Shown in pieces: positions 1,354-17,220 of a stretch of DNA of 64,000 bases. The stretch lies in the IMG/VR virus record IMGVR_UViG_3300042935_001404, one strand, 5' to 3'. How positions within the stretch are numbered: position 1 is the first letter of the stretch; each line of letters opens with the position of its first letter. The notes beneath the pieces were generated by a model. It made no database searches. It was not told where the DNA came from and was given only the letters and a program-made list of their open reading frames with translations. The translations under genes were made by a program, and so were the position numbers. This stretch comes from a virus (lineage: Duplodnaviria > Caudoviricetes).

Positions 1354-1928
1354 TGCAAAAACGATTGCTTTTAGATGGGTGTAGTTTTACCTATGGACTT
1401 AATTTGCTACACAATCAAAAATTAGAGCAGCACTTTGTTGAATCAGGATACGAAGTAGTTAATTTGTCACGCCCAGGTAAAAGCAATTCGGCTATTTCGT
1501 TAGACCTGTACAACAATATGGATTCTTGCGACTTATTAGTAGTAGGATGGACCTTTAGTTCTCGGTGGCATTTAAAATACCACAATCTTGACATTGATTT
1601 ACTAGCCACTAGAGAACATGTAGAATTGCCCTACACGGTAGACAGTAGATTAATAGAACAAAGTTATCAAGAGTTGCATCGGTCTTTCTACAGTTTATTT
1701 GATGCAACACATTGGAATCAACAAAGTGATATGCTAATAGACAATACAGCGGCACTGGCAGCACATCGCGGCAAACAAGCAGTATTTTTCAGCTGGGAAT
1801 CTAGAAAAGTTGCATGTGATATGCATTACCCGCATGTGCCATCCTCGCATCGACTGCCTTGTGGACACTTAAATGCAGACGGCACAACCAATCTATATAA
1901 TACGTTAACACATCTAATAGAACAATGA
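1353..1928 (+). CDS. SGNH/GDSL-hydrolase-like protein
   Basis: N-terminal DGCSFTYG, NLSRPGKSN, C-terminal HLN. Confidence 0.5.
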   Translation: MQKRLLLDGCSFTYGLNLLHNQKLEQHFVESGYEVVNLSRPGKSNSAISLDLYNNMDSCDLLVVGWTFSSRWHLKYHNLDIDLLATREHVELPYTVDSRLIEQSYQELHRSFYSLFDATHWNQQSDMLIDNTAALAAHRGKQAVFFSWESRKVACDMHYPHVPSSHRLPCGHLNADGTTNLYNTLTHLIEQ

Positions 1929-3310
1929 GCACCGGCGATCAAAGTAAATTTATGAGTCTGGCAGAGCAGATGAAAGAGGATCTTGGTCCTGCATTGTGCC
2001 TGGCCAAGTGGAAGCAAGTAAGTCTACATCTACCCACCGGGCTTAATAATTCGTGTTACCATCCGCCATTACATCCAATCTCTGCCAACGATTTACAACG
2101 CCCAGGCGGCATACATAATACTGAGCATAAAAAACAACAACGCATGATGATGATTCGCGGCGAAAAGCCCACTGAGTGTCAGTACTGTTGGAACATGGAA
2201 AATCTAGGCAAACTTTCAGACAGACATTACCGGTCGGGCGAGGCCTGGGCCGCAGTGGACTTTGAAAAAATTAAAAACAGCGTAGGCAATGAAGATGATG
2301 TTGTTCCTTCCTATGTAGAAGTTAATTTTAATCATGCATGTAATCTAAAGTGTAGTTATTGCAGTCCACAGTTTAGCAGTAGTTGGGGCGAAGAAATAGA
2401 CCGATATGGTGCGTTCCCTACTAGCAAGCCGCACAATGCTCCGGAACATTTTGTAGGCAATCGTAAACCTATTCCTGTAAGAGAAGACAATCCTTATGTG
2501 GATGCATTTTGGGAATGGTGGCCCGCCCTGTACCCACAGTTAGAACATTTCCGTATGACCGGTGGCGAACCGCTAATGGATCGAAACACTTATCGAGTGT
2601 TTGATTATGTATTAGAGCATCCTAGTCCCAAACTACACTTAAATGTAACGTCAAACTTTAGTGTAGAAGATCAACTGTTTAAAAAGTACATGTCCTATGT
2701 AAAGCGGTTGTGTACACCCAACATCGAACACTTCATGCAATATGTTAGTTTGGACTCTGGCATAGCACCACAAGCAGAATATATACGTCACGGATTAGAT
2801 TATGATCGCATGTCCAAGAACGTTGTGGAGTTCCTACAAGACATTCCTTATCGCAACAGTTTGACATTTATTGTTACAATGAATAACTTAACAGTAACAG
2901 GACTACAACCTTTGTTAGAATGGATATTAAACCTACGCAAACTATATTCTAACACATATCAACGTGTGTGGTTTGATACTCCTGTGCTACGTGAACCTGC
3001 TTGGCAAAGTTTACAAATACTTCCAGAAAGTTATGCACAACAATTAGAACGTGCTAGAGATTACATGCTGGCTAACATGATTACAGAAGCTAACCCTTTA
3101 CACGGATTTAAAGATTACGAAGTGCAACGTATTGAACGTGATATTGCGTGGATGCGTGAAGGACAACACAAAGATAACTTGGTAGCAAAAGCAGATTTTT
3201 ATCGTTTCTTTAACGAGCACGATCGCCGACGCGGCACCGACTTTTTAACAGCTTTTCCTGAAATGCGATCATGGTGGGCAGAATGTGAGTACCATGCTCG
3301 GCAATCGTAA
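1925..3310 (+). CDS. radical SAM protein with N-terminal SPASM/Twitch-like Cys domain
   Basis: CNLKCSYC, TGGEP; N-terminal CLAKW..SCYH..CQYC. Confidence 0.9.
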   Translation: MSTGDQSKFMSLAEQMKEDLGPALCLAKWKQVSLHLPTGLNNSCYHPPLHPISANDLQRPGGIHNTEHKKQQRMMMIRGEKPTECQYCWNMENLGKLSDRHYRSGEAWAAVDFEKIKNSVGNEDDVVPSYVEVNFNHACNLKCSYCSPQFSSSWGEEIDRYGAFPTSKPHNAPEHFVGNRKPIPVREDNPYVDAFWEWWPALYPQLEHFRMTGGEPLMDRNTYRVFDYVLEHPSPKLHLNVTSNFSVEDQLFKKYMSYVKRLCTPNIEHFMQYVSLDSGIAPQAEYIRHGLDYDRMSKNVVEFLQDIPYRNSLTFIVTMNNLTVTGLQPLLEWILNLRKLYSNTYQRVWFDTPVLREPAWQSLQILPESYAQQLERARDYMLANMITEANPLHGFKDYEVQRIERDIAWMREGQHKDNLVAKADFYRFFNEHDRRRGTDFLTAFPEMRSWWAECEYHARQS

Positions 3311-4433
3311 ATTTATTATTGACACCATGAGCGAGGTTTACAGTATGATGAAACCTTACTCAGATGACGAGTTGTGGGATCTAGGCGCTCATGAAATTCA
3401 ACCCAACTCAATCTATCTGTTAGGCCGCAAGCAAATGGTAGAACACACAGATCGTGTTAGAGAAATGGCTGCTGACCCAACTATAACTGTGATATTTGGT
3501 AACAGTGCCGAAGGATCTAAAACGATTGTAGATCAATTGCGTGTGTTAAAAATAGAAGACTTAGTGCTGTCAGGGAAGATATTGCTGTTGAGTGGCGGCG
3601 AAATTGAACCTCAATATCCATATTTGTTGCATGAACATTTTATCACACACATACTAGATTATAAAGAAAACATTCAAGCACAACAACGCACTGATGAAAT
3701 TTTTAACAAAAAAATTAAACCTTATAAATTTTTATTTTTAAACGGGCGGGTACGTTCTCATAGAAAATATCTGCTTGAAAGATTGCGTCAACTGGGCATT
3801 TTAGACAGTGCAATCTGGACCATGTTAGATGGCCGAATTCCAACTAATCAATATTTTAGTCTACATGAAAACGGCATAGATGTAATTGGCCAAAATACTG
3901 CGATTAAACAGTTGCCTTCAGAATACGAATTTAAATTTTTTAAGAATAAATCTATTGTGTTGGATTACCCACATAAATTTGCCAAAAATGAATTGTTTGA
4001 TACTCACTGGGGTGAAATTTATTTAGAACCTGCTCCGTACATTGACACTTATTTTAGTTTGGTAACTGAAACTGTGTTTGAATATCCTTATAGTTTTAGA
4101 ACAGAAAAAATTGCCAAACCATTGGCAATGGGCCATCCGTGGATCTGTGCTGCCAGTGTGGGATTTTATCGAGACATGCACAAATTGGGATTTCAAACAT
4201 TTGGACATGTGATAGATGAAAGTTTTGATACAATCGACAATCATCAAGATCGAATGGAAAGAATAGCAATGATAGTCAAAGATTTATGTCAACAAGATCT
4301 TGCAAGTTTTCTAAATGAATGCTATAATGTATGTAAATACAATCAACAACACCTTGCAGAATTGCGCACACAGTGTCGCAAAGAGTTTCCTGACCGTTTC
4401 CAACAATTTATCAATGAACGATTTAGATTTTAA
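3294..4433 (+). CDS. putative glycosyltransferase-like protein (ET..TEK family)
   Basis: YFSLVTETVF..TEKIAKPL..GHPWI..GFQTF..IDESFD. Confidence 0.45.
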   Translation: MLGNRKFIIDTMSEVYSMMKPYSDDELWDLGAHEIQPNSIYLLGRKQMVEHTDRVREMAADPTITVIFGNSAEGSKTIVDQLRVLKIEDLVLSGKILLLSGGEIEPQYPYLLHEHFITHILDYKENIQAQQRTDEIFNKKIKPYKFLFLNGRVRSHRKYLLERLRQLGILDSAIWTMLDGRIPTNQYFSLHENGIDVIGQNTAIKQLPSEYEFKFFKNKSIVLDYPHKFAKNELFDTHWGEIYLEPAPYIDTYFSLVTETVFEYPYSFRTEKIAKPLAMGHPWICAASVGFYRDMHKLGFQTFGHVIDESFDTIDNHQDRMERIAMIVKDLCQQDLASFLNECYNVCKYNQQHLAELRTQCRKEFPDRFQQFINERFRF

Positions 4434-5772
4434 ACATGAAATTTTAGACACCAAGAGTGCAAGTTTTTGTGCGGCCAAATGGTACAATGCTACCATATGG
4501 TTGGGAAGTGGACAAACTACCAGTTGCCACCATCCACCGGCACACTCAATTGATCTGGATGCGTTGGCCGCCAATCCTTCTGCGCTACACAACACCGCAA
4601 AGAAAAAAGATGATCGGCGACTGATGTTAGCGGGCAAACGTCCCACAGGTTGTGAATACTGCTGGAAGATTGAAGACATGGGCAAAGATTCCGTATCTGA
4701 CCGTGTGTACAAAAGTAAAATTTACCCTATAGAGGCCTTAAATGATGCATACCAAACCCCCCACACAGAAGATGTCAATCTTCGCACACTTGAAATTGCG
4801 TTCGACCGCACTTGCCAATTTGCTTGTTCTTATTGTAACCCTGCTTTCAGTAGCACATGGGTTAATGACATTAAAAAGCACGGACCTTATGTCGGTCTGG
4901 TGTCAGATGGGCGTAATCACTTTACTCATGCTCATGCTAGCAGTCAACTATACCGATTTGGTGAAACAAATCCCTACGTTGAAGCGTTCTTTAAATGGTG
5001 GGAAACTGACCTACACCGAACGCTCCAAGAACTGAGAATAACCGGTGGCGAGCCGCTGATGAGTGCTGAGACATGGAAACTGATTGATTGGTTTAAAAAC
5101 AATCCAGGCAGATCAACCACTCGGTTAGCAATCAATTCTAATCTTGGCGCAGATGTTGATGTAGATAGACTTATTGAAAGCACACGTGGCCTGGATGTAG
5201 AAATTTACACATCTATGGAGGCTGTTGGTGCTCACGCAGAATACATTCGAGATGGACTAGATTATCACGCTTGGGAAAATAATGTAACTAAACTGTTAGA
5301 CAGTCACGTAGGTGCAGTACACGTAATGGCCACTATTAATGCATTGTGCTTGACAACATTGCCAATGCTTCTGCATTATGTAGTACAACTTAAATCAAAG
5401 TATGGTCGTAAACGTGTTAACTTTACATTAAATATACTGAGATTTCCTAGTTTTCAAAGTCCACTGGTACTGCCCCGGGCATTGCTTACACGTCATATGC
5501 TTGACTTATCTAATTTCTTAAAGCGTTGGAAAACGGTTCCAGACATACTGCACGAACACGAAATTAATCACCTACAGCGATTAATTGATTATTTAGATGT
5601 AGTAAAAACTCCGCATTCAGACGCATTTGACATGCCTAAGTTACACAATGACTTTAAGCAGTTTTACACACAGTATGACCAACGCCGCGGAAAAAGTTTT
5701 AAAGATACATTTAAAGACAGTTATCCAATAGACGTAACATTATCAACATGGTATGACTCAATACAAATATAA
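4414..5772 (+). CDS. radical SAM protein with N-terminal SPASM/Twitch-like domain
   Basis: CQFACSYC, TGGEP; CAAKW..SCHH..CEYC; start refined to MNDLDF. Confidence 0.9.
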   Translation: MNDLDFKHEILDTKSASFCAAKWYNATIWLGSGQTTSCHHPPAHSIDLDALAANPSALHNTAKKKDDRRLMLAGKRPTGCEYCWKIEDMGKDSVSDRVYKSKIYPIEALNDAYQTPHTEDVNLRTLEIAFDRTCQFACSYCNPAFSSTWVNDIKKHGPYVGLVSDGRNHFTHAHASSQLYRFGETNPYVEAFFKWWETDLHRTLQELRITGGEPLMSAETWKLIDWFKNNPGRSTTRLAINSNLGADVDVDRLIESTRGLDVEIYTSMEAVGAHAEYIRDGLDYHAWENNVTKLLDSHVGAVHVMATINALCLTTLPMLLHYVVQLKSKYGRKRVNFTLNILRFPSFQSPLVLPRALLTRHMLDLSNFLKRWKTVPDILHEHEINHLQRLIDYLDVVKTPHSDAFDMPKLHNDFKQFYTQYDQRRGKSFKDTFKDSYPIDVTLSTWYDSIQI

Positions 5773-7036
5773 TTCAACAGACCTGGTACGTCCAACAGAA
5801 CTTTCGGAACGTGAAGAATTTTTATTAAAAGATTCCAAAACATTCTGCATCTACCCTTGGATACACTTACACGCATATCCCACAGGCGAAGCATATCCTT
5901 GCTGTCATGCTGAAATGGGTGTGGGCCAAATTGGCAACTGCAGATCAAACACACTGGCAGAAATATGGAACAGTCCAGAACAAAAACAACTCAGAGTTGA
6001 CATGCTGTCAGAAACCCCCAACCCGGCCTGTGGTCGTTGCTACGAACAGGAAGAGTCGGGATTTTTCAGTGGCCGCAAAAGTGCCAACAAGCACCACGGG
6101 CATCATATCAATCGAGTAGGTAATACCAATGCTGCCGGGCAGGTTGATCAATTTGAAATGACCTATTGGGATCTGCGATTTAGTAATCTTTGCAATTTAA
6201 GTTGCCGTAGTTGTGGGCATATCTTTAGTAGCAGTTGGTATAAAGATCAATCCGAGTTGGCCGGGCCTGCTTGGGCCAGTCAAAACAAACCTCTTAACTA
6301 TGCTGGTCGTTATGCCACTGACTTGTGGGAACAACTGATCGAGCATATTGATCACGTGGAGCAGATTTACTTTGCCGGCGGCGAGCCCCTGATGATGGAA
6401 GAGCACTACCTGATTCTAGAAGAACTAGAACGTCGTGGTCGCTTTGATGTTAGACTAATATACAATACTAACTTTACACAAACACGACTTAAAGACCGTA
6501 CAGTATTTGATTACTGGCGCAAGTTTGACAGTGTAGCAGTTGGGGCAAGCCTTGATGCGTCTGGTCCACGCGGTGAGTACATACGCAAAGGCACAGACTG
6601 GGCTGTGGTAGAATCAAATCGCAGACAAATGATGGAAATATGCCCCAGAGTAGACTTTTACATCAGTCCCACACTTAGTATTATGAACGCATTACATCTT
6701 CCAGACTTTCATAGAGACTGGGTAGAGAAAGGTATGTTAACGCCTCAAGACCTTAATGTAAACATACTGCAAGACCCTGCATATTTAAGAATTGATATTG
6801 CGCCCAGCGAATACAAACAACGAATACAGTCTAAATATGAACAGCATTTAGAATGGTTACGACCGTTGGATCAACTGAATCGTGCCACTGTGGGATTTGA
6901 AAGCGCCATTACATTTATGAACAGCACTGACAACACACAGCTACTTGACACTTTTTGGCGTAAGACGCACGAGCTTGACAGCATTAGACGAGAACATGTA
7001 CTTGATGTGTTACCAGAATTAAGAGCAATTAAATGA
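5753..7036 (+). CDS. radical SAM protein with N-terminal SPASM/Twitch-like domain
   Basis: CNLSCRSC, AGGEP; CIYPW..PCC..CGRC. Confidence 0.9.
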   Translation: MTQYKYNSTDLVRPTELSEREEFLLKDSKTFCIYPWIHLHAYPTGEAYPCCHAEMGVGQIGNCRSNTLAEIWNSPEQKQLRVDMLSETPNPACGRCYEQEESGFFSGRKSANKHHGHHINRVGNTNAAGQVDQFEMTYWDLRFSNLCNLSCRSCGHIFSSSWYKDQSELAGPAWASQNKPLNYAGRYATDLWEQLIEHIDHVEQIYFAGGEPLMMEEHYLILEELERRGRFDVRLIYNTNFTQTRLKDRTVFDYWRKFDSVAVGASLDASGPRGEYIRKGTDWAVVESNRRQMMEICPRVDFYISPTLSIMNALHLPDFHRDWVEKGMLTPQDLNVNILQDPAYLRIDIAPSEYKQRIQSKYEQHLEWLRPLDQLNRATVGFESAITFMNSTDNTQLLDTFWRKTHELDSIRREHVLDVLPELRAIK

Positions 7037-8427
7037 GTACATGGAACGAATTTTACAATCAGATACGTGATCCGTTGTGGCCCGATTGTGAAAATGAATA
7101 CGAGTTTAAATCTCTTCCAGAAAACATACAAAAAGAGTGCATTGAAATTTTTGGATATGCGCCAGGCTCTTTTAAAAATAAATCTAAATTACTTAATAAG
7201 AAATTTCCTATTGTAACTGATACCGCATGTCAACTTAAATGGACGTGGAGTACTATATTTCTATCCACTGGCAAAACTGCCAGTTGTCACAGAACAAACC
7301 ATCATAAATTTAACACAGATACGTTTGAATTTCACAATACACCGAGCAAATTAGATGATCGTACTAACATGCTCAACGGGGAATGGCCCAACATTGGATG
7401 TGACTATTGTAAAAACATCGAAAAAGCAGGCGGACAAAGTGATAGGATTACCAACTTGGATTTTCCTGGGATTCATGCGCCACCAGAATTAGACCAAGAC
7501 CCAACAGCAATTCATGTCACTCCGAGAATACTTGAAGTTTATTTTGATAATACATGCAATTTAAAATGTCTTTATTGTGGCCCACATTTCAGTAGCTTGT
7601 GGGATGCAGAAAATATTAAATTTGGAGATGCTGCATTTCTTAAAGATGCAAACTTGGAACACAACAAGAAAAAGTTATTTGAATGGTTAAAAATCAACGG
7701 TCACAATCTTTCAGTATTTAATATACTAGGCGGTGAACCACTTTATCAAGAAGAATTAGAACAATGCTTGACATTATTTGAACAACATCCATCGCCTGAA
7801 TTAAAAATACAAATTTTTACCAATTTAAATATTAAACTGTCACGTTTGCAAAAAATTATTGATCGCATTAAACAATTAATTGATAATAACTGTATTAGAG
7901 AATTTGAAATTACTGCCAGTCTTGACTGCTGGGGACCGCAACAAGAGTATGTTAGGTATCCGTTAGATCTTCAGGAATGGGAAAAAAACTTTGAATACTT
8001 ACTAAGTAACTCCTGGATAAATTTAATTGTAAGTTCCACTGTTACTCCTCTAACTATTAAAACACTTCCAGATTTATTGATAAAAATTGCCCAATGGAAT
8101 AAAGTCAGAACAGTATATCATTATCAAAATTCAGTCAACGACCCAGGCTATATGTTTATTGATATATTTGGAGATATATTTAAAGATGATTTTGATCAAA
8201 TAATTAAATTAAAACCAGCAAACACACCGGAAGAAATATCTAGTAGAGATTACCTAATAGGCATAGCAAAACAAAGTCAGTCGGTTGCTCCTGACGTTTT
8301 TAAAATTGGTCAATTGTTTAATTTTTTAAATAAAATGGATCTACGAAGAAATACCAGTTGGAAGTTTACATTTCCTTGGTTAATTGATGAATTTAAAAAA
8401 TATGACCTACACACAGAAAGCAATTGA
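7033..8427 (+). CDS. radical SAM protein with N-terminal SPASM/Twitch-like domain
   Basis: CNLKCLYC, LGGEP; CQLKW..SCHR..CDYC. Confidence 0.9.
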   Translation: MSTWNEFYNQIRDPLWPDCENEYEFKSLPENIQKECIEIFGYAPGSFKNKSKLLNKKFPIVTDTACQLKWTWSTIFLSTGKTASCHRTNHHKFNTDTFEFHNTPSKLDDRTNMLNGEWPNIGCDYCKNIEKAGGQSDRITNLDFPGIHAPPELDQDPTAIHVTPRILEVYFDNTCNLKCLYCGPHFSSLWDAENIKFGDAAFLKDANLEHNKKKLFEWLKINGHNLSVFNILGGEPLYQEELEQCLTLFEQHPSPELKIQIFTNLNIKLSRLQKIIDRIKQLIDNNCIREFEITASLDCWGPQQEYVRYPLDLQEWEKNFEYLLSNSWINLIVSSTVTPLTIKTLPDLLIKIAQWNKVRTVYHYQNSVNDPGYMFIDIFGDIFKDDFDQIIKLKPANTPEEISSRDYLIGIAKQSQSVAPDVFKIGQLFNFLNKMDLRRNTSWKFTFPWLIDEFKKYDLHTESN

Positions 8428-9009: not shown

Positions 9010-10213
9010 CACTTTTTGCGTGTTGCCTTGGATCTCACTGGAGGCCAGTCCTGTTGGGACTGTACGTCCTTGCTGTCTGGCCATGGACGAAATCACTGAC
9101 AGCAACGGAGACAAATATAAACTAGCAACAACTGGATTGGGCGAAATACAAAATAGCCGAGCAATGAAAACTCTGCGAGAAGACTTTCTTGCTGGTAAAA
9201 AACCGCAGAACTGCCGTCGTTGCTGGAATGAAGAACGTGCCGGTCGTACCAGCAAACGTATGCACACACTGGACAGACTCAAGCACATGATCGATCGTGA
9301 TGTTGATTGGACCCAGGATGCAATGCCATTGATGTTCCTGGATCTTAAACTAGGCAACATTTGTAATTTAAAATGTCGTATTTGCGGCTCGTGGAGTAGT
9401 AGTCAGTTTGCCGCAGAAGAAATCAAATACAATCGTGCTGAAGATACTCGTGGTAGCTTTGCGTATCAGATGCTTCGAGACGGCGCCTGGCCCAGAGAAA
9501 GTGTAGAGTTTTGGACGGACCTGGACCAACACTTGGACAACATACGCTACATTGAGTTCACCGGTGGCGAGCCTTTTATGATTCAAGAGCATTTTCAACT
9601 GCTACAAAAATTAGTAGACACTGGCCGTGCAGCACAAGTTGAAATACACTACAACACCAATGGTACACAGTATCCAGAAGAAGGCGAAGCCATCTGGAAA
9701 CACTTCAAGAATGTTGAAATTGCCATCAGCATCGACGATGTAGCAGAACGGTTTGAATACCAGCGTACCAATGCTGTGTGGTACGAAGTGGTTGAGAATG
9801 TAGAGCGTTTTCGCCAACTACGCAGTCGTAACAGTAACATCACATTACAGGCCTGTTGCACTATCAACGTGTTCAATGTGTACTATCTTGAAACTGTGGC
9901 CAATTGGTTAATACAACAGGGATTTGATTTTATCTACTGGAACATGATGCACGATGCCTATTACTTTAGTATTAGTACATTGCCAGAATCAGCCAAAGCA
10001 GAAATCACTACAAAACTAACCTCTGCAACTGTTCCGCCTAAGATACTTAAAGAGTTTGTCAGTGCGGCCGAGTTTATGAATCGTGGCAACAGTCTAGATG
10101 GACATTTGTTACGTATGAATCTACGTGACCTTGACCATAAGAGAAAGCAAAACTTAGCACAAGTGGCACCAGAGTTTGCGGCATTGATCGACTATGACTA
10201 CAACAAAACCTGA
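8993..10213 (+). CDS. radical SAM protein with N-terminal SPASM/Twitch-like domain
   Basis: CNLKCRIC, TGGEP; CVLPW..PCC..CRRC. Confidence 0.9.
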   Translation: MNIPHDTFCVLPWISLEASPVGTVRPCCLAMDEITDSNGDKYKLATTGLGEIQNSRAMKTLREDFLAGKKPQNCRRCWNEERAGRTSKRMHTLDRLKHMIDRDVDWTQDAMPLMFLDLKLGNICNLKCRICGSWSSSQFAAEEIKYNRAEDTRGSFAYQMLRDGAWPRESVEFWTDLDQHLDNIRYIEFTGGEPFMIQEHFQLLQKLVDTGRAAQVEIHYNTNGTQYPEEGEAIWKHFKNVEIAISIDDVAERFEYQRTNAVWYEVVENVERFRQLRSRNSNITLQACCTINVFNVYYLETVANWLIQQGFDFIYWNMMHDAYYFSISTLPESAKAEITTKLTSATVPPKILKEFVSAAEFMNRGNSLDGHLLRMNLRDLDHKRKQNLAQVAPEFAALIDYDYNKT

Positions 10214-11492
10214 CATACTGTGCATGGCGCCATGGACACACACGTATCTAAGTCCACAAACAGAACGGCGTATGTGTTGTGCGTCGAGAGAACCTGCGCA
10301 GAGTTTTGAACAGTACATCGACACCGGTGCTGGAACAGGACGTTACACTCCTATTACTTTGGATCAACACTGGAACGGTGAGCACATGCGATCAGTGCGA
10401 CGTCGCATGATGTCTGGCGAAACATTGCCCGAATGCGATGTATGCAATAGCAAATTGCTAAACACCGACGTTTATCGTAGTTATTTTTGGCATTTGTTCC
10501 GACACAAGTATGACGATGTTGTTGCTTCAACAGATGACACCGGGTATACCACAATGAAACCTGTAAGCTGGGACTATCGTTTTAGTAATCTTTGTAACTT
10601 TAAATGCAGAACCTGTGGTGATATGCTATCCAGTGCCTGGGAAACAGAACAAAAAACACATGACATGATCAACTGGCACAATCCTAAAAACAATTGGATG
10701 CGATCAGATGTACGTCAAGAAATAACTAAGTTTCAGGATAAACAAATTGAGGCAGAATTTGCCGACGCAGTTGAACAACATCGTGTAGAAGAAGTATACT
10801 GGGTAGGCGGCGAACCATTGATGTATGAACAGCACTGGCGCTACATGAAAAGAATAGTAGAACTTGGAGATGGAGAAAGAGTATATGCTAGGTACAACAC
10901 CAATCTTAGTCGCATTGAGTATCGTGGCATTAATTTATATCGTGATATTTTATCTAATATACGCGACTGGCAGATTTGCGCTTCCTTGGACGGAACAGAA
11001 GATATCGGAGAATACATACGTACAGGTTTGGAGTATGTATCCTTTTTAAATAATTTTGAGCAAGGACTAGCTTATCAAAAGAACCGAAGACAAATGCGTC
11101 TAGACTTTACACTAACACTGCCCGGAATGTTTGAGATTATCAAAATGGAAAAGTTAGCGCAAAAGTATAATGTAGAGTTGCTGGCCAAAGTGATATTCAG
11201 TTTCGGTCCTGATATTGTTATGAGTCCATTATCATTGCCACGTGATTTACTAGAACCCTGGATTGACGAGTTATTGCCGCAATGTCACACACAAGTAATG
11301 CGAAACATGCTTGCTCAATTGCGCACTCGCCCTACGTTTGCTGAACAATGGCCAGATCAATATGCCGCAGGCATTGCAAAAGGCAAAGCTCGTGTGTTAA
11401 AATTAGAACAGATACGTACACAACCAGTCACAATGACAGACATACTGAGCACCCGGCCTGATGTATTAACGTGGTGGATGAATATACAATGA
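10194..11492 (+). CDS. radical SAM protein with N-terminal SPASM/Twitch-like domain
   Basis: CNFKCRTC, VGGEP; CMAPW..MCC..CDVC. Confidence 0.9.
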   Translation: MTTTKPDILCMAPWTHTYLSPQTERRMCCASREPAQSFEQYIDTGAGTGRYTPITLDQHWNGEHMRSVRRRMMSGETLPECDVCNSKLLNTDVYRSYFWHLFRHKYDDVVASTDDTGYTTMKPVSWDYRFSNLCNFKCRTCGDMLSSAWETEQKTHDMINWHNPKNNWMRSDVRQEITKFQDKQIEAEFADAVEQHRVEEVYWVGGEPLMYEQHWRYMKRIVELGDGERVYARYNTNLSRIEYRGINLYRDILSNIRDWQICASLDGTEDIGEYIRTGLEYVSFLNNFEQGLAYQKNRRQMRLDFTLTLPGMFEIIKMEKLAQKYNVELLAKVIFSFGPDIVMSPLSLPRDLLEPWIDELLPQCHTQVMRNMLAQLRTRPTFAEQWPDQYAAGIAKGKARVLKLEQIRTQPVTMTDILSTRPDVLTWWMNIQ

Positions 11493-12532
11493 TAGATCAA
11501 ATTGAAATTACTTTAAAAGGCAATGACAACAGCACTACGACAGTGTGGATTGATGTTGCAGATAACAGCTTGAGTCACAAATGGCTTGCCGCATTAAATA
11601 CCCTAATCCGTAACAATTATCATTTGGAAAAGAATTACTGTTTTTTTGGATTTGTGCAAAGTCAACGCAACGCAGAATACTTAACCGAACAAATGAACAG
11701 TAGTATTGCTGCCATTAATGCTGCCAACATTGGATATCATATTGACGATTATTTTTCAACTGCTAATACTATTGCGCCCGATGTAAAGTTAATACATGAT
11801 AAGTTAAACTATCTACATCGTTACTTTGAAGATTTGCAAGGTATATCGGGTGCAATGAGTCCTTTTTATACCAAAGCAGATCCCGTGACACGATGGCATA
11901 TAAGACAATTAAATTTGTTATGTCATGAATACGAAAGTCTTGTTCTCAGTATGCGCAAAGCACTTTATACACCTGAATGGCAACGACCTAGTCAACTCAT
12001 GTGTTGGTTACACGCACCGCGATTTGTGTTAGATGAACAAGATTATGAACTGTTTGGAGTTGAAACAATCAATAGGCCACTGGGTGGAGTTTTTGTAGGC
12101 GTAAATAAAGCTGTAGGCAAACACCATTGGGAAGTGTTCAATGATGAAGGACGAGACAGCCGTGTAGGAGAGTTAATAACTACAACGCTAAAACCACAAA
12201 CAGAAGCCGCCGGCGACTTTGACATTGAATGGGCCAACAATCCTGGCACATTTCCGTGGCAGCAAAAAACCTTGACAGATTTTAGAGTATGGTTAACAAA
12301 CAACGGGTTTGATCCAGAAGATAAAAGTCTAACCATTGGACATCCGCAGGTGGCACAGGTAGATTTAATCCGTAGTTTTGGAACAGATAACTATGTAGAT
12401 ATATGGAACACCTTAGGAAGTCATCTTAACGTGCATAAAATACGCACCAGTGATGCAACAGCTACATACAGTTATAATTGGACAGATGCAGATTATGCAG
12501 ATCAACAAATTAAAATAATACAAGGGACATGA
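11489..12532 (+). CDS. hypothetical protein
   Basis: long ORF overlapping upstream stop (ATGA). Confidence 0.75.
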   Translation: MIDQIEITLKGNDNSTTTVWIDVADNSLSHKWLAALNTLIRNNYHLEKNYCFFGFVQSQRNAEYLTEQMNSSIAAINAANIGYHIDDYFSTANTIAPDVKLIHDKLNYLHRYFEDLQGISGAMSPFYTKADPVTRWHIRQLNLLCHEYESLVLSMRKALYTPEWQRPSQLMCWLHAPRFVLDEQDYELFGVETINRPLGGVFVGVNKAVGKHHWEVFNDEGRDSRVGELITTTLKPQTEAAGDFDIEWANNPGTFPWQQKTLTDFRVWLTNNGFDPEDKSLTIGHPQVAQVDLIRSFGTDNYVDIWNTLGSHLNVHKIRTSDATATYSYNWTDADYADQQIKIIQGT

Positions 12533-12533
12533 T

Positions 12534-12635
12534 ATGAACTGGATTAAAAATTTATACAATCGTATTCGTTTAGAAATACGCTATCGTAAAAAACTAAAAG
12601 AACTACGTAAACGAGATCCTTTTATCTACAAATGA
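12534..12635 (+). CDS. 33-aa basic small protein MNWIKNLYNRIRLEIRYRKKLKELRKRDPFIYK
   Basis: fills gap exactly; stop overlaps next ATG (ATGA); translated by hand. Confidence 0.65.
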   Translation: MNWIKNLYNRIRLEIRYRKKLKELRKRDPFIYK

Positions 12636-14143
12636 AGTTGAAAACATATTTGGGTGTCAGTGCCGGGTTTCACGATGCCGCTGTGAGTGTAATTCAGTCT
12701 GACGGCAGTGTACTTTTTGCCGGGCATGCAGAACGCTACAGCAAAAACAAAAACGATGCACATCTAAATGATTCGATCATTGCAGAAGCAATGTCATACG
12801 CAACTCCGGATGTGATTGCATACTATGAACGTCCGTGGGTCAAAAAACTACAACAACTATATTCGGGACAATATGAGGAAGCCTTTGATTTTGGGAATTT
12901 TACTTTGGATCAGTATTTGCATAAACATCTATCTGATACTGTTCATCGGCAGCAACTACTACGATGCCCTAGAAAATATATGTCCCATCATCATAGTCAC
13001 GCCGCCGCAGGATTCCAATCCAGCCCCTATAACAGGGCCACAGTGGTTGTAATTGATGCCATTGGTGAATTAGACACCGTAACTATCTGGGGAGCAGAAT
13101 ATGATCGATCAGGCATGGCAACGTATAAAAAACTTTGGACACAGCGTTACCCACATTCAATTGGATTGTTCTACTCTGCGGCTACTGGCAGCGTTGGCCT
13201 ACGCCCACTAGACGAAGAATATATCTTGATGGGTATGGCCGCATATGGCAATGCTAGTCACGCTGTTAAAATGCAAGCATTGGTAGAAGATGTAGACACC
13301 ATACGCTTTTGTGAAAATCTACACACAGGAATAGACAGTCAATACCTGCAAGATTTAACTGAGTTTGATATTGCCGCAGGTGCACAAGCCATTGCGGAAC
13401 AATTGATCAACAGCGTGATGCGCAGAGCCAGAGACTTTGGCTGGAGCAACAACTTGGTCTACATGGGCGGTGTTGCTCTCAACTGTAGTGCTAACCGCAA
13501 CCTAGGAGAATACTTTGATAATATTTGGATTATGCCTTGTCCTGGTGACGCTGGCAGTAGTTTGGGCGCGGCAGCACTTGCATACGGAAAACAGATACAT
13601 TGGAAAAACGCCTATTTGGGTTGTGTTATTCCGGGTGCTTATCCTGTTGCTGATATTGTATCTTGCTTACTAAGCGATAAAATTGTTGGTGTTGCTAGTG
13701 GTCGTGCTGAGTTTGGCCCTAGGGCTCTCGGCAATAGGAGTTTATTAGCAGACCCGCGTGGTGCAGACATAAAGGATCGTGTAAATGATATTAAAAGACG
13801 ACAGCAATTCAGACCATTTGCGCCGGTTATTTTGGAGGAGCATGTTGATATGTATTTTGATATGCCTCATGGCTTCCATAACAGTAGGTATATGCAAGTC
13901 ATCGCTCGCTGTAGGCATCCTCACATATTTCCTGCTATCGTTCATAGGGACGGCACTAGTAGGGTACAGACTGTTCCTAAGGATGGCTCCGGAATAAGAC
14001 AACTGCTAGAAGAATGGTACAAGGCAACAGGTTGTCCTATGTTGCTTAACACAAGTCTTAACATACGTGGCGAACCCATGGTAAATGATCGTGCAGACGC
14101 AGATAGATTTGAACAATTATACGGAGTAAAAGTCTGCTCATGA
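12632..14143 (+). CDS. carbamoyltransferase (NodU/CmcH family)
   Basis: HDAA, HHHSHAA, GGVALNC, GDAG, EFGPRALGNRS, RPFAP, LLNTSLN. Confidence 0.92.
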   Translation: MKLKTYLGVSAGFHDAAVSVIQSDGSVLFAGHAERYSKNKNDAHLNDSIIAEAMSYATPDVIAYYERPWVKKLQQLYSGQYEEAFDFGNFTLDQYLHKHLSDTVHRQQLLRCPRKYMSHHHSHAAAGFQSSPYNRATVVVIDAIGELDTVTIWGAEYDRSGMATYKKLWTQRYPHSIGLFYSAATGSVGLRPLDEEYILMGMAAYGNASHAVKMQALVEDVDTIRFCENLHTGIDSQYLQDLTEFDIAAGAQAIAEQLINSVMRRARDFGWSNNLVYMGGVALNCSANRNLGEYFDNIWIMPCPGDAGSSLGAAALAYGKQIHWKNAYLGCVIPGAYPVADIVSCLLSDKIVGVASGRAEFGPRALGNRSLLADPRGADIKDRVNDIKRRQQFRPFAPVILEEHVDMYFDMPHGFHNSRYMQVIARCRHPHIFPAIVHRDGTSRVQTVPKDGSGIRQLLEEWYKATGCPMLLNTSLNIRGEPMVNDRADADRFEQLYGVKVCS

Positions 14144-15405
14144 CTGATAAACAAGTATTTCCAATCAAAACAGACACAGGATGCTTGCTCAAGTGGGCCT
14201 GGAGCACTGTGTACTTAAATCAAGGCACAAGTGCTAGTTGTCACCGTACAGACCAACAACCCATACCTCCAGACAACTTTGAAAGTTTTCATAATCTGCC
14301 AAACAAAATAGAAGCCAGGCAAATGATGTTGCGTGGCGAATGGCCACAGGGTGGTTGTCAGTACTGCGAAAAGATTGAAACAGCTGGCGGCATGAGCGAC
14401 AGACAATATCAATTACATGCTCGTCATGACCTGGATCGTACTCCGCACGAGTTGTTTAAAGATCCAACTACGTTGGAAGTTGTACCTACCATATTAGAAG
14501 TATATTTCAACAATGTATGCAACATGGCCTGCTTGTATTGCGGCAGTCACTTTAGTACAAAATGGGAAGAAGAGAACCGACGATTTGGTGTGTTTACACA
14601 AGGCAATGTAAACTTTGGGCACAACACACAATCTAATCCCAACTATGAGCGCATGCTGGCAGACTTTTGGCGCTACCTGGAAGAGAAAGATCGTTACAAA
14701 CACATACGCTACTATCAAATACTGGGTGGCGAGCCTTTCTTCCAGGATGAGTTTGACATCAGCATGGACTTCTGGGAAAGTCATCCCAATCCAGAACTTA
14801 CATTTAACATTATTACCAACCTAAAGGTACCACCTAAAAAGTTCCAAGCCTACATTGATCGCTTTGGCAAGATGGTTGAGTCTGGCGCACTAAAACGATT
14901 GCAAATCACAGGTAGTATAGATGCCTGGGGACCACAAGAAGAATATGTGCGGTGGGGATTAGACTTGGCCGAGTGGACAGAAAACTGGGAATATCTACTA
15001 GACAAAGACTGGGTTGTGATGTGCGTGAACAGTGCAGTGTCGGCATTGACAATTAAAACAGCACCTGAGCTAGTGGAAAAGATAAACGAGTGGAACGATC
15101 GTCGCAATCCGTGGAATCCTATTAGCTACAGTTTCATGAGTGTGATGACCCCGCCTGAAATGGTTCCAGACATATTTGGACCAGGCGTGTTTGAACAGGA
15201 CTTTGCACGTTTACTGGCCGCAATGCGAGAACGCAATCCCAGCGAAGTCAGTGCTAAAGAACACATGCGTGGCATTATGAAACAGATTGTAGCAGGACCT
15301 CGCAACGCAGAACGTATTGCTGATTTGAAAGTTTATCTGACTGAAATAGATCGACGTCGTGTCACTGATTGGAAACTGTTGTTTCCGTGGCTGATAGAAC
15401 TATAA
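14140..15405 (+). CDS. radical SAM protein with N-terminal SPASM/Twitch-like domain
   Basis: CNMACLYC, LGGEP; CLLKW..SCHR..CQYC. Confidence 0.9.
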   Translation: MTDKQVFPIKTDTGCLLKWAWSTVYLNQGTSASCHRTDQQPIPPDNFESFHNLPNKIEARQMMLRGEWPQGGCQYCEKIETAGGMSDRQYQLHARHDLDRTPHELFKDPTTLEVVPTILEVYFNNVCNMACLYCGSHFSTKWEEENRRFGVFTQGNVNFGHNTQSNPNYERMLADFWRYLEEKDRYKHIRYYQILGGEPFFQDEFDISMDFWESHPNPELTFNIITNLKVPPKKFQAYIDRFGKMVESGALKRLQITGSIDAWGPQEEYVRWGLDLAEWTENWEYLLDKDWVVMCVNSAVSALTIKTAPELVEKINEWNDRRNPWNPISYSFMSVMTPPEMVPDIFGPGVFEQDFARLLAAMRERNPSEVSAKEHMRGIMKQIVAGPRNAERIADLKVYLTEIDRRRVTDWKLLFPWLIEL

Positions 15406-16199
15406 TAGTCTAGGTTGCTGGGTGCGGACCGTTGGTTGTCCATCTGTTCAAGATCTAATGCTGCCAACACATCCTTACTAGTGGTTGGTTCACGCAATGC
15501 TCGGCCTTGTACATGAATCAAGTCCTGTGCTTGATTATAATGCCAACCCGGATCAATTAGTTCTAACCTATTATTTAATAATACGCCAATACTGGTAAAA
15601 ACACACTTAGGTGGAATTAACAAATTTTTAACGTTGTCAAATTGTTCCAAGGATATTGCGTTTATTAATGATGTCAGCCCAATAGGTCGATCCTGGAAGC
15701 ACAGTTCAAATGCTCCGCCGCATAGATATACATTTTCAACGTCAGGATACTGTGAATTGAGCAAATATACCACCTGGTCCAGAGTCCAGGCCGCAAACAT
15801 TTTCTGATCCTGTCTGAGAGGCATAGTTAACACAGCCGGATTAGTGACTGGTGTATCATGAAGTATAAATTGATTTACAACAGGTCCATGATGGTTGTCA
15901 GAGATTATCTGTGCATGTTCTTGTGCCAACCAGGCTGAACCTGTGTAGGCTGGAACAGCAGGATTGAGATCGGGATTGAACACCTGTCTACTGTTGTGCC
16001 AAATTGGCGATTCTATTGGCGTTGCTGATGTTCCGTGCAATTCGTATTCTGTGTAAGATGCAACCACTATGCACTTTACAAAATCTTGTTGAATAAACTC
16101 GGCTAAGTGTTTAAACATTTGATGCGGCCGATGGCCAACTGGATCTAGCCATGCATCAATGACAATAACCGCACTTGGAGTTCGAAACTTACTGGACAT
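15333..16199 (-). CDS. hypothetical protein (weak cysteine-hydrolase/isochorismatase-like N-terminus)
   Basis: AVIVIDAW N-terminus; convergent 73-nt overlap with previous gene. Confidence 0.5.
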   Translation of the reverse strand: MSSKFRTPSAVIVIDAWLDPVGHRPHQMFKHLAEFIQQDFVKCIVVASYTEYELHGTSATPIESPIWHNSRQVFNPDLNPAVPAYTGSAWLAQEHAQIISDNHHGPVVNQFILHDTPVTNPAVLTMPLRQDQKMFAAWTLDQVVYLLNSQYPDVENVYLCGGAFELCFQDRPIGLTSLINAISLEQFDNVKNLLIPPKCVFTSIGVLLNNRLELIDPGWHYNQAQDLIHVQGRALREPTTSKDVLAALDLEQMDNQRSAPSNLDYYSSISHGNNSFQSVTRRRSISVR

Positions 16200-17220
16200 G
16201 ACACAGTTCTACTAAACTGGGATTAAACTGTATGCGTCCTGCATATTCCGAATATGCTGTGCCTAAAAAGTACATGGCTGCTGAATGATCTGTATGAGAG
16301 ATGTTGCCAATCACATCATGTTCAGCATAATTGACCCATGTGCCCCAATCTTCTAAGCGGTTAATCACTCCGCTAAATCCCATATCAACACATAGTCGAC
16401 AGAAGTTCTGCATGTCTTGATAGTTGTCTTGCTGTAGCACAAACTTTAACAGTACTTCTGCACCTGTACGTTCTACAGTGCCCTGCAACCAAGTTAAGTT
16501 GGTAATCAACTGTGACCACTGTCCTCCTAGACGCACACGTTCATATACTGGAGCAGAGCCTGCATCTATGCTGATAAAATACTGTGTAATGTGATCAAGT
16601 ATAGGAGAATCATCCAGTTGTTTTTTCAATAACAAGCCATTGGTGAACAACCGAATAGTTTGATTGGGGCCTGGACAAAATTCTCGTATCAATGGTCGCA
16701 TAATAGCACTGGCCAACGGATCGCCGTTGCCACTCATTACAATGTGGCAAGGTTCTTTAAATTCTTCTAACAAACGACGTATGTGTTGTACCTGTGCTAG
16801 TTTGCGATCATACTCGTCGCCAGAGTTGATCATTATTGCCGCAGGCCTGCAACTTGGGCAACGTAGATTACAACTTTCGTCAACGTTGATGCTGACCACG
16901 TGTGTTGTATCTATTTTGCTAGAGTGTACCACACCACATCGATCAACAGCACAATGTGTATAAGCACCAGAATCAATGTCGGCTTGTAATGCCAATGCTG
17001 ACTTGCTGTTCCATACACTGGCCAATGAATCAAAGTCTGAAATTTGTCCTACACTGATTGGCAACCATGCTTCGCATCCACATACAAAACAATCACCTTT
17101 CCAGTCTATAACCAATTGGCGACTGGGTGCATTGCAGTGATTGTCAATTGTTAATTTTAAATCTGCATTGCGCGGTATTGAATTGTAGGAGTGCCGGTTA
17201 GCAATTGGAATGACAAACAT
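16189..17220 (-). CDS. radical SAM/SPASM-like protein
   Basis: CNLRCPSC, SGNGDP, FTNG; N-terminal Cys cluster CNAP..CFVCGC..CAVDRC. Confidence 0.85.
   Translation of the reverse strand: MFVIPIANRHSYNSIPRNADLKLTIDNHCNAPSRQLVIDWKGDCFVCGCEAWLPISVGQISDFDSLASVWNSKSALALQADIDSGAYTHCAVDRCGVVHSSKIDTTHVVSINVDESCNLRCPSCRPAAIMINSGDEYDRKLAQVQHIRRLLEEFKEPCHIVMSGNGDPLASAIMRPLIREFCPGPNQTIRLFTNGLLLKKQLDDSPILDHITQYFISIDAGSAPVYERVRLGGQWSQLITNLTWLQGTVERTGAEVLLKFVLQQDNYQDMQNFCRLCVDMGFSGVINRLEDWGTWVNYAEHDVIGNISHTDHSAAMYFLGTAYSEYAGRIQFNPSLVELCHVQ

What the first reader, a model, noticed from the sequence alone, without database searches (positions are those of the whole stretch)
1925..17220. Array of eight radical-SAM paralogs with the auxiliary Cys domain placed N-terminally
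Seen: eight ORFs (1925, 4414, 5753, 7033, 8993, 10194, 14140, 16189) carry CxxxCxxC. Seven also share an upstream C-x3-W..C(C/H)..CxxC cluster and GGEP; 16189 has variants of both. Established: SPASM/Twitch domains are normally C-terminal and bind auxiliary Fe-S clusters, as in the sugar dehydrogenase BtrN and peptide maturases. Inference: a paralog expansion performing serial radical tailoring of a glycan, virion protein or DNA adduct. No substrate is identifiable from sequence.
Basis: partly seen in the sequence, partly recalled or inferred. Interest (0 to 1): 0.7.

Follow-up and report, generated by a model that had tools for sequence, protein, structure and literature searches.

The report
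Phage array of twitch-first radical-SAM enzymes
A giant lake-water phage keeps eight intact iron-sulfur "radical SAM" enzyme genes, seven from a catalogued but never-studied family whose extra iron-sulfur domain sits in front of the catalytic barrel, inside a widely conserved sugar-handling operon; they most likely edit a sugar decoration by chemistry nobody has tested.

Summary
All eight ORFs carry CxxxCxxC and an upstream four-Cys cluster.

The "unusual" layout is already catalogued. Seven ORFs pass the curated cut-off of NCBIfam NF033640 (N_Twi_rSAM, 222-404 bits against 170). The eighth (16189-17271, minus strand) has the same layout but fails that model. I found no paper on this family and no solved full-length structure.

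It is not a recent paralog burst. Five copies (1925, 4315, 5753, 8993, 10194) are old, separately conserved groups. They keep a fixed order with a GT2-like gene, an unknown gene and a carbamoyltransferase in 72-80 of the 80 best IMG/VR phage loci. The copies at 7033, 14140 and 16189 are accessory.

- **Conservation:** all seven Cys are invariant in 398 sequences.
- **Selection:** dN/dS is 0.05-0.11.
- **Copy number:** a complete 347-kb relative holds 16 copies.

Context points to radical tailoring of a sugar on a soluble acceptor, perhaps a virion protein. The neighbours are glycosyltransferase-like genes, a carbamoyltransferase, an aminotransferase and an epimerase. A virion structural gene lies upstream, a phage SAM synthetase lies in the window, and no island protein has a membrane segment. 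The reaction and substrate are not shown.

This scan found the same module before in several other phage genomes.

The parts
427..1353 (+). o427: GT2-like (GT-A-type) putative glycosyltransferase, first gene of the conserved module
   Evidence: Present in 74 of 80 viral loci directly upstream of the 1925 group. Four of 18 orthologues give weak Pfam GT2 hits, E about 0.04. Its second-nearest ESM-atlas cluster (score 0.99, behind what may be its own cluster) is auto-named 'Glycosyltransferase 2-like'. It is paired with an rSAM in Ralstonia phage RsoM2USA too.
1353..1928 (+). o1353: small unknown protein, paralogous type to 8428-9009; variable cassette gene
   Evidence: No Pfam or PHROG hit. Found in 6 of 80 loci. 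A similar ORF sits beside a dispersed rSAM copy in G002.
1925..3310 (+). N_Twi radical SAM, core group 1
   Evidence: NF033640 308.6 bits. Own viral clade with 100% SH-aLRT support. Found in 77 of 80 loci. dN/dS 0.068.
3285..4433 (+). o3285: GT10-like ('TEK' motif) putative glycosyltransferase, paralog of 18232-19419 and 19403-20518
   Evidence: Cross-hits among the three paralogs. It belongs to a virus-only ESM-atlas family; the nearest Pfam-bearing cluster is GT10 at score 0.79, which is a lead only. Found in 43 of 80 loci.
4315..5772 (+). N_Twi radical SAM, core group 2 (alternative start 4414)
   Evidence: NF033640 292.6 bits. Found in 79 of 80 loci. dN/dS 0.074.
5753..7036 (+). N_Twi radical SAM, core group 3, the most typical family member
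   Evidence: NF033640 403.7 bits; Pfam SPASM at residues 32-97, 46 bits. AF2 model pLDDT 94.7. Radical SAM core closest to anSMEcpe, BlsE, SkfB and CteB, Z 12.5-13.2.
7033..8427 (+). N_Twi radical SAM, accessory copy (same clade as 14140)
   Evidence: NF033640 223.3 bits. Absent from the 90-99% identical record G001 together with 8428-9009. Found in 4 of 80 loci.
8428..9009 (+). o8428: small unknown protein travelling with the 7033 cassette
   Evidence: No family hit. Absent from G001.
8993..10213 (+). N_Twi radical SAM, core group 4
   Evidence: NF033640 350.3 bits; Pfam SPASM at residues 9-78. Found in 74 of 80 loci. dN/dS 0.070.
10194..11492 (+). N_Twi radical SAM, core group 5
   Evidence: NF033640 274.8 bits. 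Found in 72 of 80 loci. dN/dS 0.074.
11471..12532 (+). o11471: conserved module protein of unknown fold and function
   Evidence: Found in 57 of 80 loci. No Pfam, PHROG or PDB sequence hit. AF2 pLDDT 83 with no Foldseek match; VIA Z 7-8.4 to cyclophilin-like barrels only.
12632..14143 (+). NodU/CmcH-type carbamoyltransferase
   Evidence: Pfam Carbam_trans_N 3.6e-31 and Carbam_trans_C 1.2e-48. Found in 60 of 80 loci at the end of the module.
14140..15405 (+). N_Twi radical SAM, accessory copy
   Evidence: NF033640 221.8 bits. Found in 5 of 80 loci. dN/dS 0.066.
16189..17271 (-). Divergent radical SAM with an N-terminal SPASM-like domain; not a member of NF033640
   Evidence: NF033640 only 34.3 bits against a cut-off of 170. 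Pfam SPASM at residues 46-112 (27.5 bits) precedes Radical_SAM at 132-267. Found in 10 of 80 loci. dN/dS 0.11.
17220..20518 (-). Convergent block: 17220-18239 (unknown; earlier notes call it an amidinotransferase) and two GT10-like paralogs (18232-19419, 19403-20518)
   Evidence: No Pfam hit at E 0.01. PHROG 25854, unknown function, for 17220. Paralogy to o3285. Found in 26-39 of 80 loci.
23317..25621 (-). Aminotransferase and nucleotide-sugar epimerase homologues (island context)
   Evidence: phrog_3139 aminotransferase 1.3e-19; phrog_540 nucleotide-sugar epimerase 3.6e-59.
58233..59429 (-). Phage S-adenosylmethionine synthetase (MetK) homologue, a possible SAM supply
   Evidence: tblastn gives 50-53% identity over more than 90% of the length to annotated SAM synthetases.

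Best explanation
The stretch is the core of a conserved jumbo-phage operon of soluble enzymes. Its order is: a GT2-like transferase; five anciently diverged N_Twi radical SAM enzymes interleaved with GT10-like transferases; an unknown conserved protein; and a carbamoyltransferase. Strain-variable accessory radical SAM genes are added to this core. Each radical SAM enzyme should bind the SAM-cleaving [4Fe-4S] cluster at CxxxCxxC. It should bind one fully Cys-ligated auxiliary [4Fe-4S] cluster in the N-terminal twitch domain. Inference: each abstracts a hydrogen atom from a different position or residue of a sugar or glycoconjugate built by the co-encoded transferases. The auxiliary cluster would take the electron from the substrate radical, giving oxidation to a keto sugar, epimerisation, deoxygenation or C-C/C-X bond formation. 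These are the reactions known for the twitch sugar enzymes BtrN, HygY, SpeY and BlsE. The keto or modified sugars would then be aminated, carbamoylated or extended. The acceptor is probably cytoplasmic and soluble. A virion protein is the best guess, because the operon follows a giant virion structural gene. Shown: family membership, intactness, conservation, module structure and context. Inferred: sugar substrate, reaction type and acceptor.
For: - **Family and cofactor sites:** NF033640 scores of 222-404 bits for seven ORFs. All seven Cys and the GGE motif are invariant in 398 sequences. The AF2 model has pLDDT 94.7 with the element order Cys, beta-hairpin, Cys, helices, CxxC ahead of the barrel. 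The core is closest to SPASM/twitch enzymes: anSMEcpe Z 13.2, BlsE 12.8, SkfB 12.5, CteB 12.5.
- **Function retained:** dN/dS is 0.05-0.11 against a 90-99% identical relative. Each core paralog forms its own well-supported viral clade (SH-aLRT 95-100). Identity is 52-64% within groups and 18-32% between groups.
- **Module:** o427, r1925, (o3285), r4315, r5753, r8993, r10194, o11471 and the carbamoyltransferase keep this order in most of 80 IMG/VR loci, down to 47% identity. Starts and stops overlap along 427-15405.
- **Sugar context:** a carbamoyltransferase; aminotransferase and NDP-sugar epimerase homologues; GT2-like o427; GT10-like paralogs. Of 83 genes flanking bacterial homologues, up to 11 carry glycosyltransferase families (GT2 6, GT1 3, EryCIII-like 2; tallied per family, so they may overlap), 2 are carbamoyltransferases and 2 are GDSL.
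- **Soluble acceptor and virion link:** none of the 21 island proteins has a convincing membrane segment. In the complete relative, a 3,411-aa protein matching phrog_10938 'virion structural protein' (E 4e-154) lies just upstream.
- **SAM supply:** a MetK homologue lies in the same window.
Against: - No member of NF033640 has a known reaction; I found no paper on it and no solved full-length relative.
- The glycosyltransferase assignments are weak: no Pfam hit at E 0.01 for the window's own proteins.
- Many bacterial homologues are fused to long TPR or Sel1 repeat arrays, which usually bind proteins.
- Four of the five best structural neighbours act on peptides (anSME, SkfB, CteB, SuiB).
- In the complete relative, ten further N_Twi copies lie among replication and packaging genes with no glycosyltransferase nearby. 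The family is therefore not tied to sugar genes everywhere.
- Gene neighbourhood cannot show serial action on one substrate.
Confidence: 0.5

Rival explanations
1. The enzymes modify amino-acid residues of a protein or peptide (for example a virion protein) rather than sugars. Possible reactions are formylglycine-type oxidation, thioether or C-C crosslinks, or epimerisation. The glycosyltransferases would act separately on the same protein.
For: Four of the five best structural matches are peptide- or protein-modifying SPASM/twitch enzymes: anSMEcpe, SkfB, CteB and SuiB. Bacterial family members are often fused to TPR or Sel1 protein-binding repeats. A giant virion structural gene lies upstream in the relative. 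Dispersed copies in G002 lack sugar genes nearby.
Against: No RRE or leader-binding domain was found by Pfam or NCBIfam. There is no small precursor-like ORF in the tightly packed operon. Glycosyltransferases, not peptidases or transporters, are enriched beside the bacterial homologues. BlsE, a sugar-nucleoside enzyme, ties with the peptide enzymes.
Confidence: 0.22
2. The substrates are small soluble molecules: nucleotide-sugars, or an aminoglycoside-like or cyclitol metabolite made during infection. In this reading, BtrN-type oxidation feeds the aminotransferase, the putative amidinotransferase and the carbamoyltransferase.
For: Twitch enzymes on sugars and aminocyclitols are the established precedent (BtrN, HygY, SpeY, BlsE; own knowledge, with BlsE at Z 12.8). 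A carbamoyltransferase, an aminotransferase and an epimerase are in the island. All island proteins are soluble.
Against: Three to five glycosyltransferase-like genes imply a polymer or a glycosylated acceptor. There is no export or resistance gene in the island. The amidinotransferase assignment was not reproduced by Pfam at E 0.01. BtrN itself matches only at E 0.17-0.6.
Confidence: 0.15
3. They take part in hypermodification of phage DNA or nucleotides, as radical SAM enzymes do in some thymidine and 7-deazaguanine pathways.
For: Radical SAM steps occur in phage DNA hypermodification (own knowledge). There are weak similarities to viperin and QueE cores. Dispersed copies in G002 sit among replication and nucleotide-metabolism genes. 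The phage has a SAM synthetase.
Against: The viperin and QueE similarities are generic core matches far below the family cut-offs. No hydroxymethylase, DNA kinase or base-transfer gene was seen in the island. The bacterial homologues sit in glycosyltransferase contexts.
Confidence: 0.08
4. The copies are redundant or decaying duplicates without distinct function.
For: Accessory copies come and go between strains: 7033 is absent from G001. One dispersed copy in G002 has an in-frame TAG.
Against: All eight frames are open. dN/dS is 0.05-0.11. Every cofactor ligand is invariant in 398 sequences. Five groups have been kept in order across phages that have diverged to 47% identity.
Confidence: 0.02

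Closest known systems
NCBIfam NF033640, N_Twi_rSAM (twitch domain-containing radical SAM protein)
   Same: Seven ORFs match the model end to end above its curated cut-off. They have the same domain order: twitch first, then the radical SAM barrel, then a helical C-terminal region.
   Different: The family entry gives no reaction. Here the members form a fixed five-gene set plus accessories in a phage operon, with up to 16 copies per genome. ORF 16189 has the layout but is not a member.
Twitch radical SAM sugar enzymes: BtrN (PDB 4M7T), BlsE (7VOB), HygY, SpeY
   Same: One auxiliary cluster held by four Cys with similar spacing. Sugar-tailoring gene context with an aminotransferase. BlsE is among the best structural matches to the core, Z 12.8.
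   Different: In these enzymes the twitch domain follows the barrel; here it precedes it. Sequence similarity to BtrN is not significant, E 0.17-0.6. Those pathways use one such enzyme, not five to eight.
anSMEcpe (PDB 4K36-4K39) and the RiPP maturases CteB, SkfB and SuiB
   Same: They are the best structural matches to the radical SAM core, Z 11.9-13.2. NCBIfam alignments place their C-terminal SPASM segments on the N-terminal domain of ORF 5753.
   Different: They have two auxiliary clusters (except SkfB), and the domain is C-terminal. They have peptide substrates with an RRE or a leader, neither of which is seen here.
Many-radical-SAM marine phage genomes (Nishimura et al. 2017, PMC5332604)
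   Same: A T4-like environmental genome with 12 radical SAM genes was reported, showing that large phages can hoard such genes.
   Different: That paper does not name the family, the domain order or a conserved module. Whether those 12 genes are N_Twi was not checked here.

Membership tests
NF033640 N_Twi_rSAM | Full-length score above the curated cut-off (170 bits) | tested here: met
   Scores of 308.6, 292.6, 403.7, 223.3, 350.3, 274.8 and 221.8 bits for ORFs 1925, 4315, 5753, 7033, 8993, 10194 and 14140, each covering about profile positions 2-397 of 398. ORF 16189 scores 34.3 bits and is not a member.
NF033640 N_Twi_rSAM | Twitch/SPASM-type Cys domain placed N-terminal to the radical SAM core | tested here: met
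   Pfam SPASM at residues 32-97 (ORF 5753), 9-78 (ORF 8993) and 46-112 (ORF 16189) precedes Radical_SAM at 143-280, 120-282 and 132-267. The predicted order Cys, hairpin, Cys, helices, CxxC lies before the barrel.
Radical SAM superfamily (PF04055) | CxxxCxxC cluster motif and GGE SAM-binding motif | tested here: met
   Invariant in the eight ORFs (16189 has GNGD in place of GGE) and in 398 viral sequences.
Radical SAM superfamily (PF04055) | Partial TIM-barrel core fold | tested here: met
   The AF2 model (pLDDT 94.7) aligns to more than 30 solved radical SAM enzymes at Z of 8 or more, with 204-231 residues aligned in the best ten.
Radical SAM superfamily (PF04055) | Reductive cleavage of SAM to the 5'-deoxyadenosyl radical | not testable with these tools
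   Needs anaerobic reconstitution and assay.
Twitch subclass (one auxiliary cluster) versus SPASM (two clusters) | Four Cys ligands for a single auxiliary [4Fe-4S] cluster, not the 7-8 Cys of SPASM | tested here: met
   Exactly four N-terminal Cys are invariant (C32, C51, C93, C96 of ORF 5753). A fifth (C50) is Cys in 229 and Ser in 169 of 398 sequences. Actual cluster content was not measured.
Canonical SPASM/twitch enzymes (TIGR04085, PF13186 architecture) | Auxiliary domain C-terminal to the barrel | tested here: not met
   The domain is N-terminal in all eight ORFs. The region after the barrel is helical and has no conserved Cys.
BtrN-type radical SAM dehydrogenases | Significant sequence relationship to BtrN and activity on an aminocyclitol or sugar hydroxyl | tested here: inconclusive
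   A profile of the eight ORFs hits BtrN only at E 0.17 (core) and 0.6 (query 19-96 against BtrN 164-244). Activity is not testable here.
RiPP radical SAM maturases | RRE or leader-recognition domain and a neighbouring precursor peptide | tested here: inconclusive
   No such domain was reported by Pfam or NCBIfam, and no small ORF is evident in the operon. A distant or non-canonical substrate protein cannot be excluded.

The most novel reading that the evidence does not exclude
The five fixed N_Twi enzymes, plus the accessory copies (16 genome-wide in a close relative), form an oxygen-independent 'radical glycan editing' pathway. It would make a heavily rearranged, aminated and carbamoylated sugar on the phage particle. 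Each paralog would catalyse a different C-H functionalisation. This would be several new radical SAM reactions at once and a new form of virion decoration in abundant lake and ocean phages.
Probability: 0.3. Interest if true: 0.8.

Novelty: new variant of a known kind. Interest (0 to 1): 0.55.

Why it matters
The family is very large. A search with ORF 5753 found 1,478 clusters (at 50% identity) with E of 1e-30 or better, yet no member has a known reaction or a solved structure.

Phages that recur in lake metagenomes of 24 studies, and in at least 579 IMG/VR stretches, keep five to sixteen copies. That cost implies a real benefit.

Working out the product would assign function to thousands of genes and probably add new radical SAM chemistry. 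It could also reveal how giant phages decorate their particles or some other target.

A cultured handle exists: Ralstonia phage RsoM2USA carries the GT2-like plus radical SAM pair.

Tried and rejected
- **No close relative in the phage collection:** megablast of the first 20 kb against the phage collection found no match.
- **Own assembly not held:** I worked through the nearest records, G001 and G002.
- **Literature:** searches for the family name, for N-terminal twitch, and for phage plus radical SAM plus glycosyltransferase found no study of this family.
- **PDB by sequence and Foldseek:** only the radical SAM core matches.
- **Neighbours:** o427, o1353, o3285, o8428, o11471, o15333, o18232, o19403 and o20517 have no Pfam hit at E 0.01 (o20517 was not scanned against Pfam) and no PHROG family.
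- **o11471:** no PDB sequence hit and no Foldseek match. VIA Z 7-9 to helical bundles and cyclophilin-like barrels is within the range the tool calls common, so its fold stays unassigned.
- **Amidinotransferase label for 17220-18239:** this label from earlier notes was not reproduced by Pfam.
- **First genome-contig scan:** it failed because the alignment was too diverse. It worked with a narrower alignment.
- **Expression:** no RNA holder was listed among the sequencing runs.
- **Bad dN/dS value:** the value for 19403-20518 (0.55) came from a mis-registered ungapped comparison and is discarded.


Full report
**1. What is there**

The window has a run of tightly packed, mostly overlapping genes on the + strand from 427 to 15405. 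A convergent block follows on the - strand from 15333 to 20518.

Eight of these genes are radical SAM proteins:
- 1925-3310
- 5753-7036
- 7033-8427
- 8993-10213
- 10194-11492
- 14140-15405
- 16189-17271 on the - strand

Their alignment shows an invariant CxxxCxxC. It also shows three invariant upstream Cys, a fourth present in seven of them, and GGEP in seven; 16189 has GNGDP.

**2. The layout is catalogued**

NCBIfam holds a model, NF033640 'N_Twi_rSAM, twitch domain-containing radical SAM protein'. Seven ORFs match it end to end at 222-404 bits against a curated cut-off of 170.

Pfam places its SPASM model at residues 32-97, 9-78 and 46-112 of ORFs 5753, 8993 and 16189, ahead of the Radical_SAM domain. 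Several NCBIfam models of classical enzymes (StsB, AhbD, NirJ, anSME) align their C-terminal SPASM segment to residues 37-103 of ORF 5753. The N-terminal domain is therefore homologous to the usual C-terminal one.

ORF 16189 has the same order of domains but scores only 34 bits, so it is a separate, divergent case.

I found no paper on the family and no solved structure that matches more than the catalytic core.

**3. Are the cysteines and the genes functional?**

I collected 391 family members from 80 IMG/VR loci and added seven from the window. The four N-terminal Cys (C32, C51, C93, C96 in ORF 5753 numbering), the three radical SAM Cys and the GGE motif are each present in all 398.

Against a syntenic record that is 90-99% identical (G001), the seven shared radical SAM genes have dN/dS of 0.05-0.11 and no stop codons.

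An AlphaFold2 model of ORF 5753 is confident (pLDDT 94.7, pTM 0.92). It shows Cys, beta-hairpin, Cys, helices and CxxC before the barrel, which is the twitch element order as I know it from BtrN.

The barrel is closest to SPASM/twitch enzymes: anSMEcpe Z 13.2, BlsE 12.8, SkfB 12.5, CteB 12.5 and SuiB 11.9. These values are near ties, and the aligned ranges cover only residues from about 111 to 398.

Four invariant Cys mean one fully ligated auxiliary cluster. In known enzymes such a cluster serves electron transfer rather than substrate binding (inference from established knowledge).

**4. Not a recent expansion but an old fixed set**

At least 579 stretches in IMG/VR encode relatives of ORF 5753. 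In the best 80 loci (47-96% identity) the same order recurs:

o427, r1925, (o3285), r4315, r5753, r8993, r10194, o11471, carbamoyltransferase.

| Gene | Loci with it (of 80) |
|---|---|
| Five core radical SAM genes | 72-80 |
| o427 | 74 |
| Carbamoyltransferase | 60 |
| o11471 | 57 |
| r14140 | 5 |
| r7033 | 4 |
| r16189 | 10 |

Many of the absences are contig ends.

In a tree, each core paralog forms its own viral clade (SH-aLRT 95-100). r7033 and r14140 share an accessory clade. Sequences from Bdellovibrionota MAGs sit next to the r1925 and r4315 clades.

Identity is 52-64% within groups and 18-32% between groups. Eight columns are conserved in each group but differ among groups. The copies therefore do different jobs.

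G001 lacks the 7033-9009 cassette and 15333-16199, so the accessory genes move as cassettes.

**5. Genome-wide picture**

The window's own assembly is not held. A complete relative is available: G002, 346,856 bp with terminal repeats, 96% identical in ORF 5753.

G002 has 16 ORFs over the NF033640 cut-off. Six are in the array and ten are dispersed between 191 and 341 kb. The dispersed copies sit among ribonucleotide reductase, DnaB, terminase, ClpP and RecA-like genes, without glycosyltransferases. Two other near-complete relatives have 9 and 7 copies.

Just upstream of the module in G002 lies a 3,411-aa protein that matches phrog_10938 'virion structural protein' (E 4e-154).

The window also encodes a SAM synthetase homologue at 58233-59429.

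**6. What the neighbours say**

In the window:
- 12632-14143 is a NodU/CmcH-type carbamoyltransferase.
- 23317-24486 and 24611-25621 are aminotransferase and nucleotide-sugar epimerase homologues.
- o427 is probably GT2-like. Four of 18 orthologues give weak Pfam hits, and its second-nearest ESM-atlas cluster (score 0.99, behind what may be its own cluster) is named 'Glycosyltransferase 2-like'.
- o3285, o18232 and o19403 are paralogs in a virus-only family. Its nearest annotated neighbour is GT10, at a score that is only a lead. Their shared ...ET...TEK...KP... segment resembles the GT10 motif as I recall it.
- None of the 21 island proteins has a convincing membrane segment. There is also no flippase, polymerase or lipid-carrier transferase.

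Beside bacterial homologues, which are mostly single-copy genes in Bacteroidota, Bdellovibrionota, Acidobacteriota and others:
- Up to 11 of 83 flanking genes carry glycosyltransferase families (GT2 6, GT1 3, EryCIII-like 2; tallied per family, so they may overlap).
- 9 are further radical SAM proteins.
- 2 are carbamoyltransferases and 2 are GDSL.

Against a purely sugar reading, many bacterial members are fused to long TPR or Sel1 arrays.

**7. Most likely mechanism**

Putting this together, the array most likely performs radical, oxygen-independent tailoring of a sugar or glycan. The sugar would be assembled by the co-encoded soluble transferases on a cytoplasmic acceptor. A virion protein is the leading candidate for that acceptor.

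Each paralog would attack a different C-H position. The auxiliary cluster would accept the electron, giving dehydrogenation, epimerisation, deoxygenation or bond formation. Amination and carbamoylation would follow.

I put this at about 0.5. The rivals are:
- residue-level modification of a protein (0.22)
- a soluble small-molecule or nucleotide-sugar pathway (0.15)
- DNA hypermodification (0.08)
- decay of redundant copies (0.02, contradicted)

**8. Comparison and novelty**

At the protein level, seven ORFs are plain members of NF033640. The domain order is therefore not a discovery.

What the family entry and the literature I could search do not describe is the phage module itself: a fixed five-paralog set with accessory copies, a GT2-like partner, a virus-only GT10-like family, an unknown conserved protein and a carbamoyltransferase. 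Nor do they describe up to 16 copies per genome, in phages that recur in lake metagenomes of 24 studies.

The only related published remark I found is a T4-like ocean phage genome with 12 radical SAM genes (PMC5332604).

Earlier notes of this scan report the same module in several other phage genomes, with the same family assignment. My tests agree with them. They are not independent evidence.

**9. Verdict**

The feature is real, intact and conserved. It uses a known architecture from an unstudied family, and its substrate is unknown. It is of moderate to high interest as a target for enzymology, and cultured handles exist: RsoM2USA, and Vibrio phages K566 and K567.

Noticed in passing
window 58233-59429 (-): The phage encodes an S-adenosylmethionine synthetase (MetK) homologue, 50-53% identical to annotated MetK over more than 90% of its length. 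It could supply SAM to the many radical SAM enzymes.
   Followed up: partly
G002 (IMGVR_UViG_3300027759_000045), 191-341 kb; loci L171-L178: The complete 347-kb relative has ten further N_Twi radical SAM genes dispersed singly among replication, nucleotide-metabolism and packaging genes. One (318146-319294) has an in-frame TAG.
   Followed up: partly
L179:8731-18966 (-) (G002, just upstream of the module): A giant 3,411-aa ORF matches phrog_10938 'virion structural protein' (E 4e-154). The sugar and radical SAM operon follows virion structural genes.
   Followed up: partly
L028, L031-L033, L035-L038, L043, L045, L050, L054, L055, L072 (Elusimicrobia MAG MJ-2014_bin-0981): Dozens of tandem genes of 700-1000 aa, each an N-terminal TPR array of 400-550 aa fused to an N_Twi radical SAM module, lie on more than a dozen contigs of one MAG. 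This expansion is extraordinary and unexplained.
   Followed up: partly
L012, L013 (RefSeq MAG 'Haliscomenobacter sp. EUL_031', contigs of 183 and 148 kb); L014 (Legionellales SP228); L015 (Rickettsiales MED606): These 'bacterial' MAG contigs carry the whole phage module in the same gene order, at 50-74% identity in ORF 5753. They are probably jumbo-phage contigs binned as bacteria.
   Followed up: partly
L009:9031-12090 (Ralstonia phage RsoM2USA_350/_349/_348); L008:11959-18701 (Vibrio phage K566): Cultured jumbo phages carry relatives. RsoM2USA has an o427-like gene, an r1925-like radical SAM (34% identity) and a second o427-like gene; all are annotated as hypothetical. K566 and K567 have four clustered copies.
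   Followed up: partly
window 11471-12532 (+): This conserved module protein has a confident AF2 model (pLDDT 83, pTM 0.83) but no Foldseek match in the PDB. It gives only middling VIA scores to cyclophilin-like barrels and four-helix bundles. It may be an undescribed domain arrangement.
   Followed up: partly
window 7033-9009 and 15333-16199: These are strain-variable cassettes. The radical SAM 7033 plus small ORF 8428, and ORF 15333, are absent from the otherwise 90-99% identical record G001. The region between o427 and r1925 also differs.
   Followed up: yes
window 3285-4433 (+), 18232-19419 (-), 19403-20518 (-): Three paralogs belong to a virus-only protein family with a shared ...ET...TEK...KP... 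segment reminiscent of GT10 fucosyltransferases. No Pfam or PHROG model covers them.
   Followed up: partly
P0122, P0123, P0125, P0134, P0137 (metagenome proteins of 790-1106 aa): Single polypeptides hold two complete N_Twi radical SAM modules in tandem. This hints that pairs of these enzymes work together.
   Followed up: no
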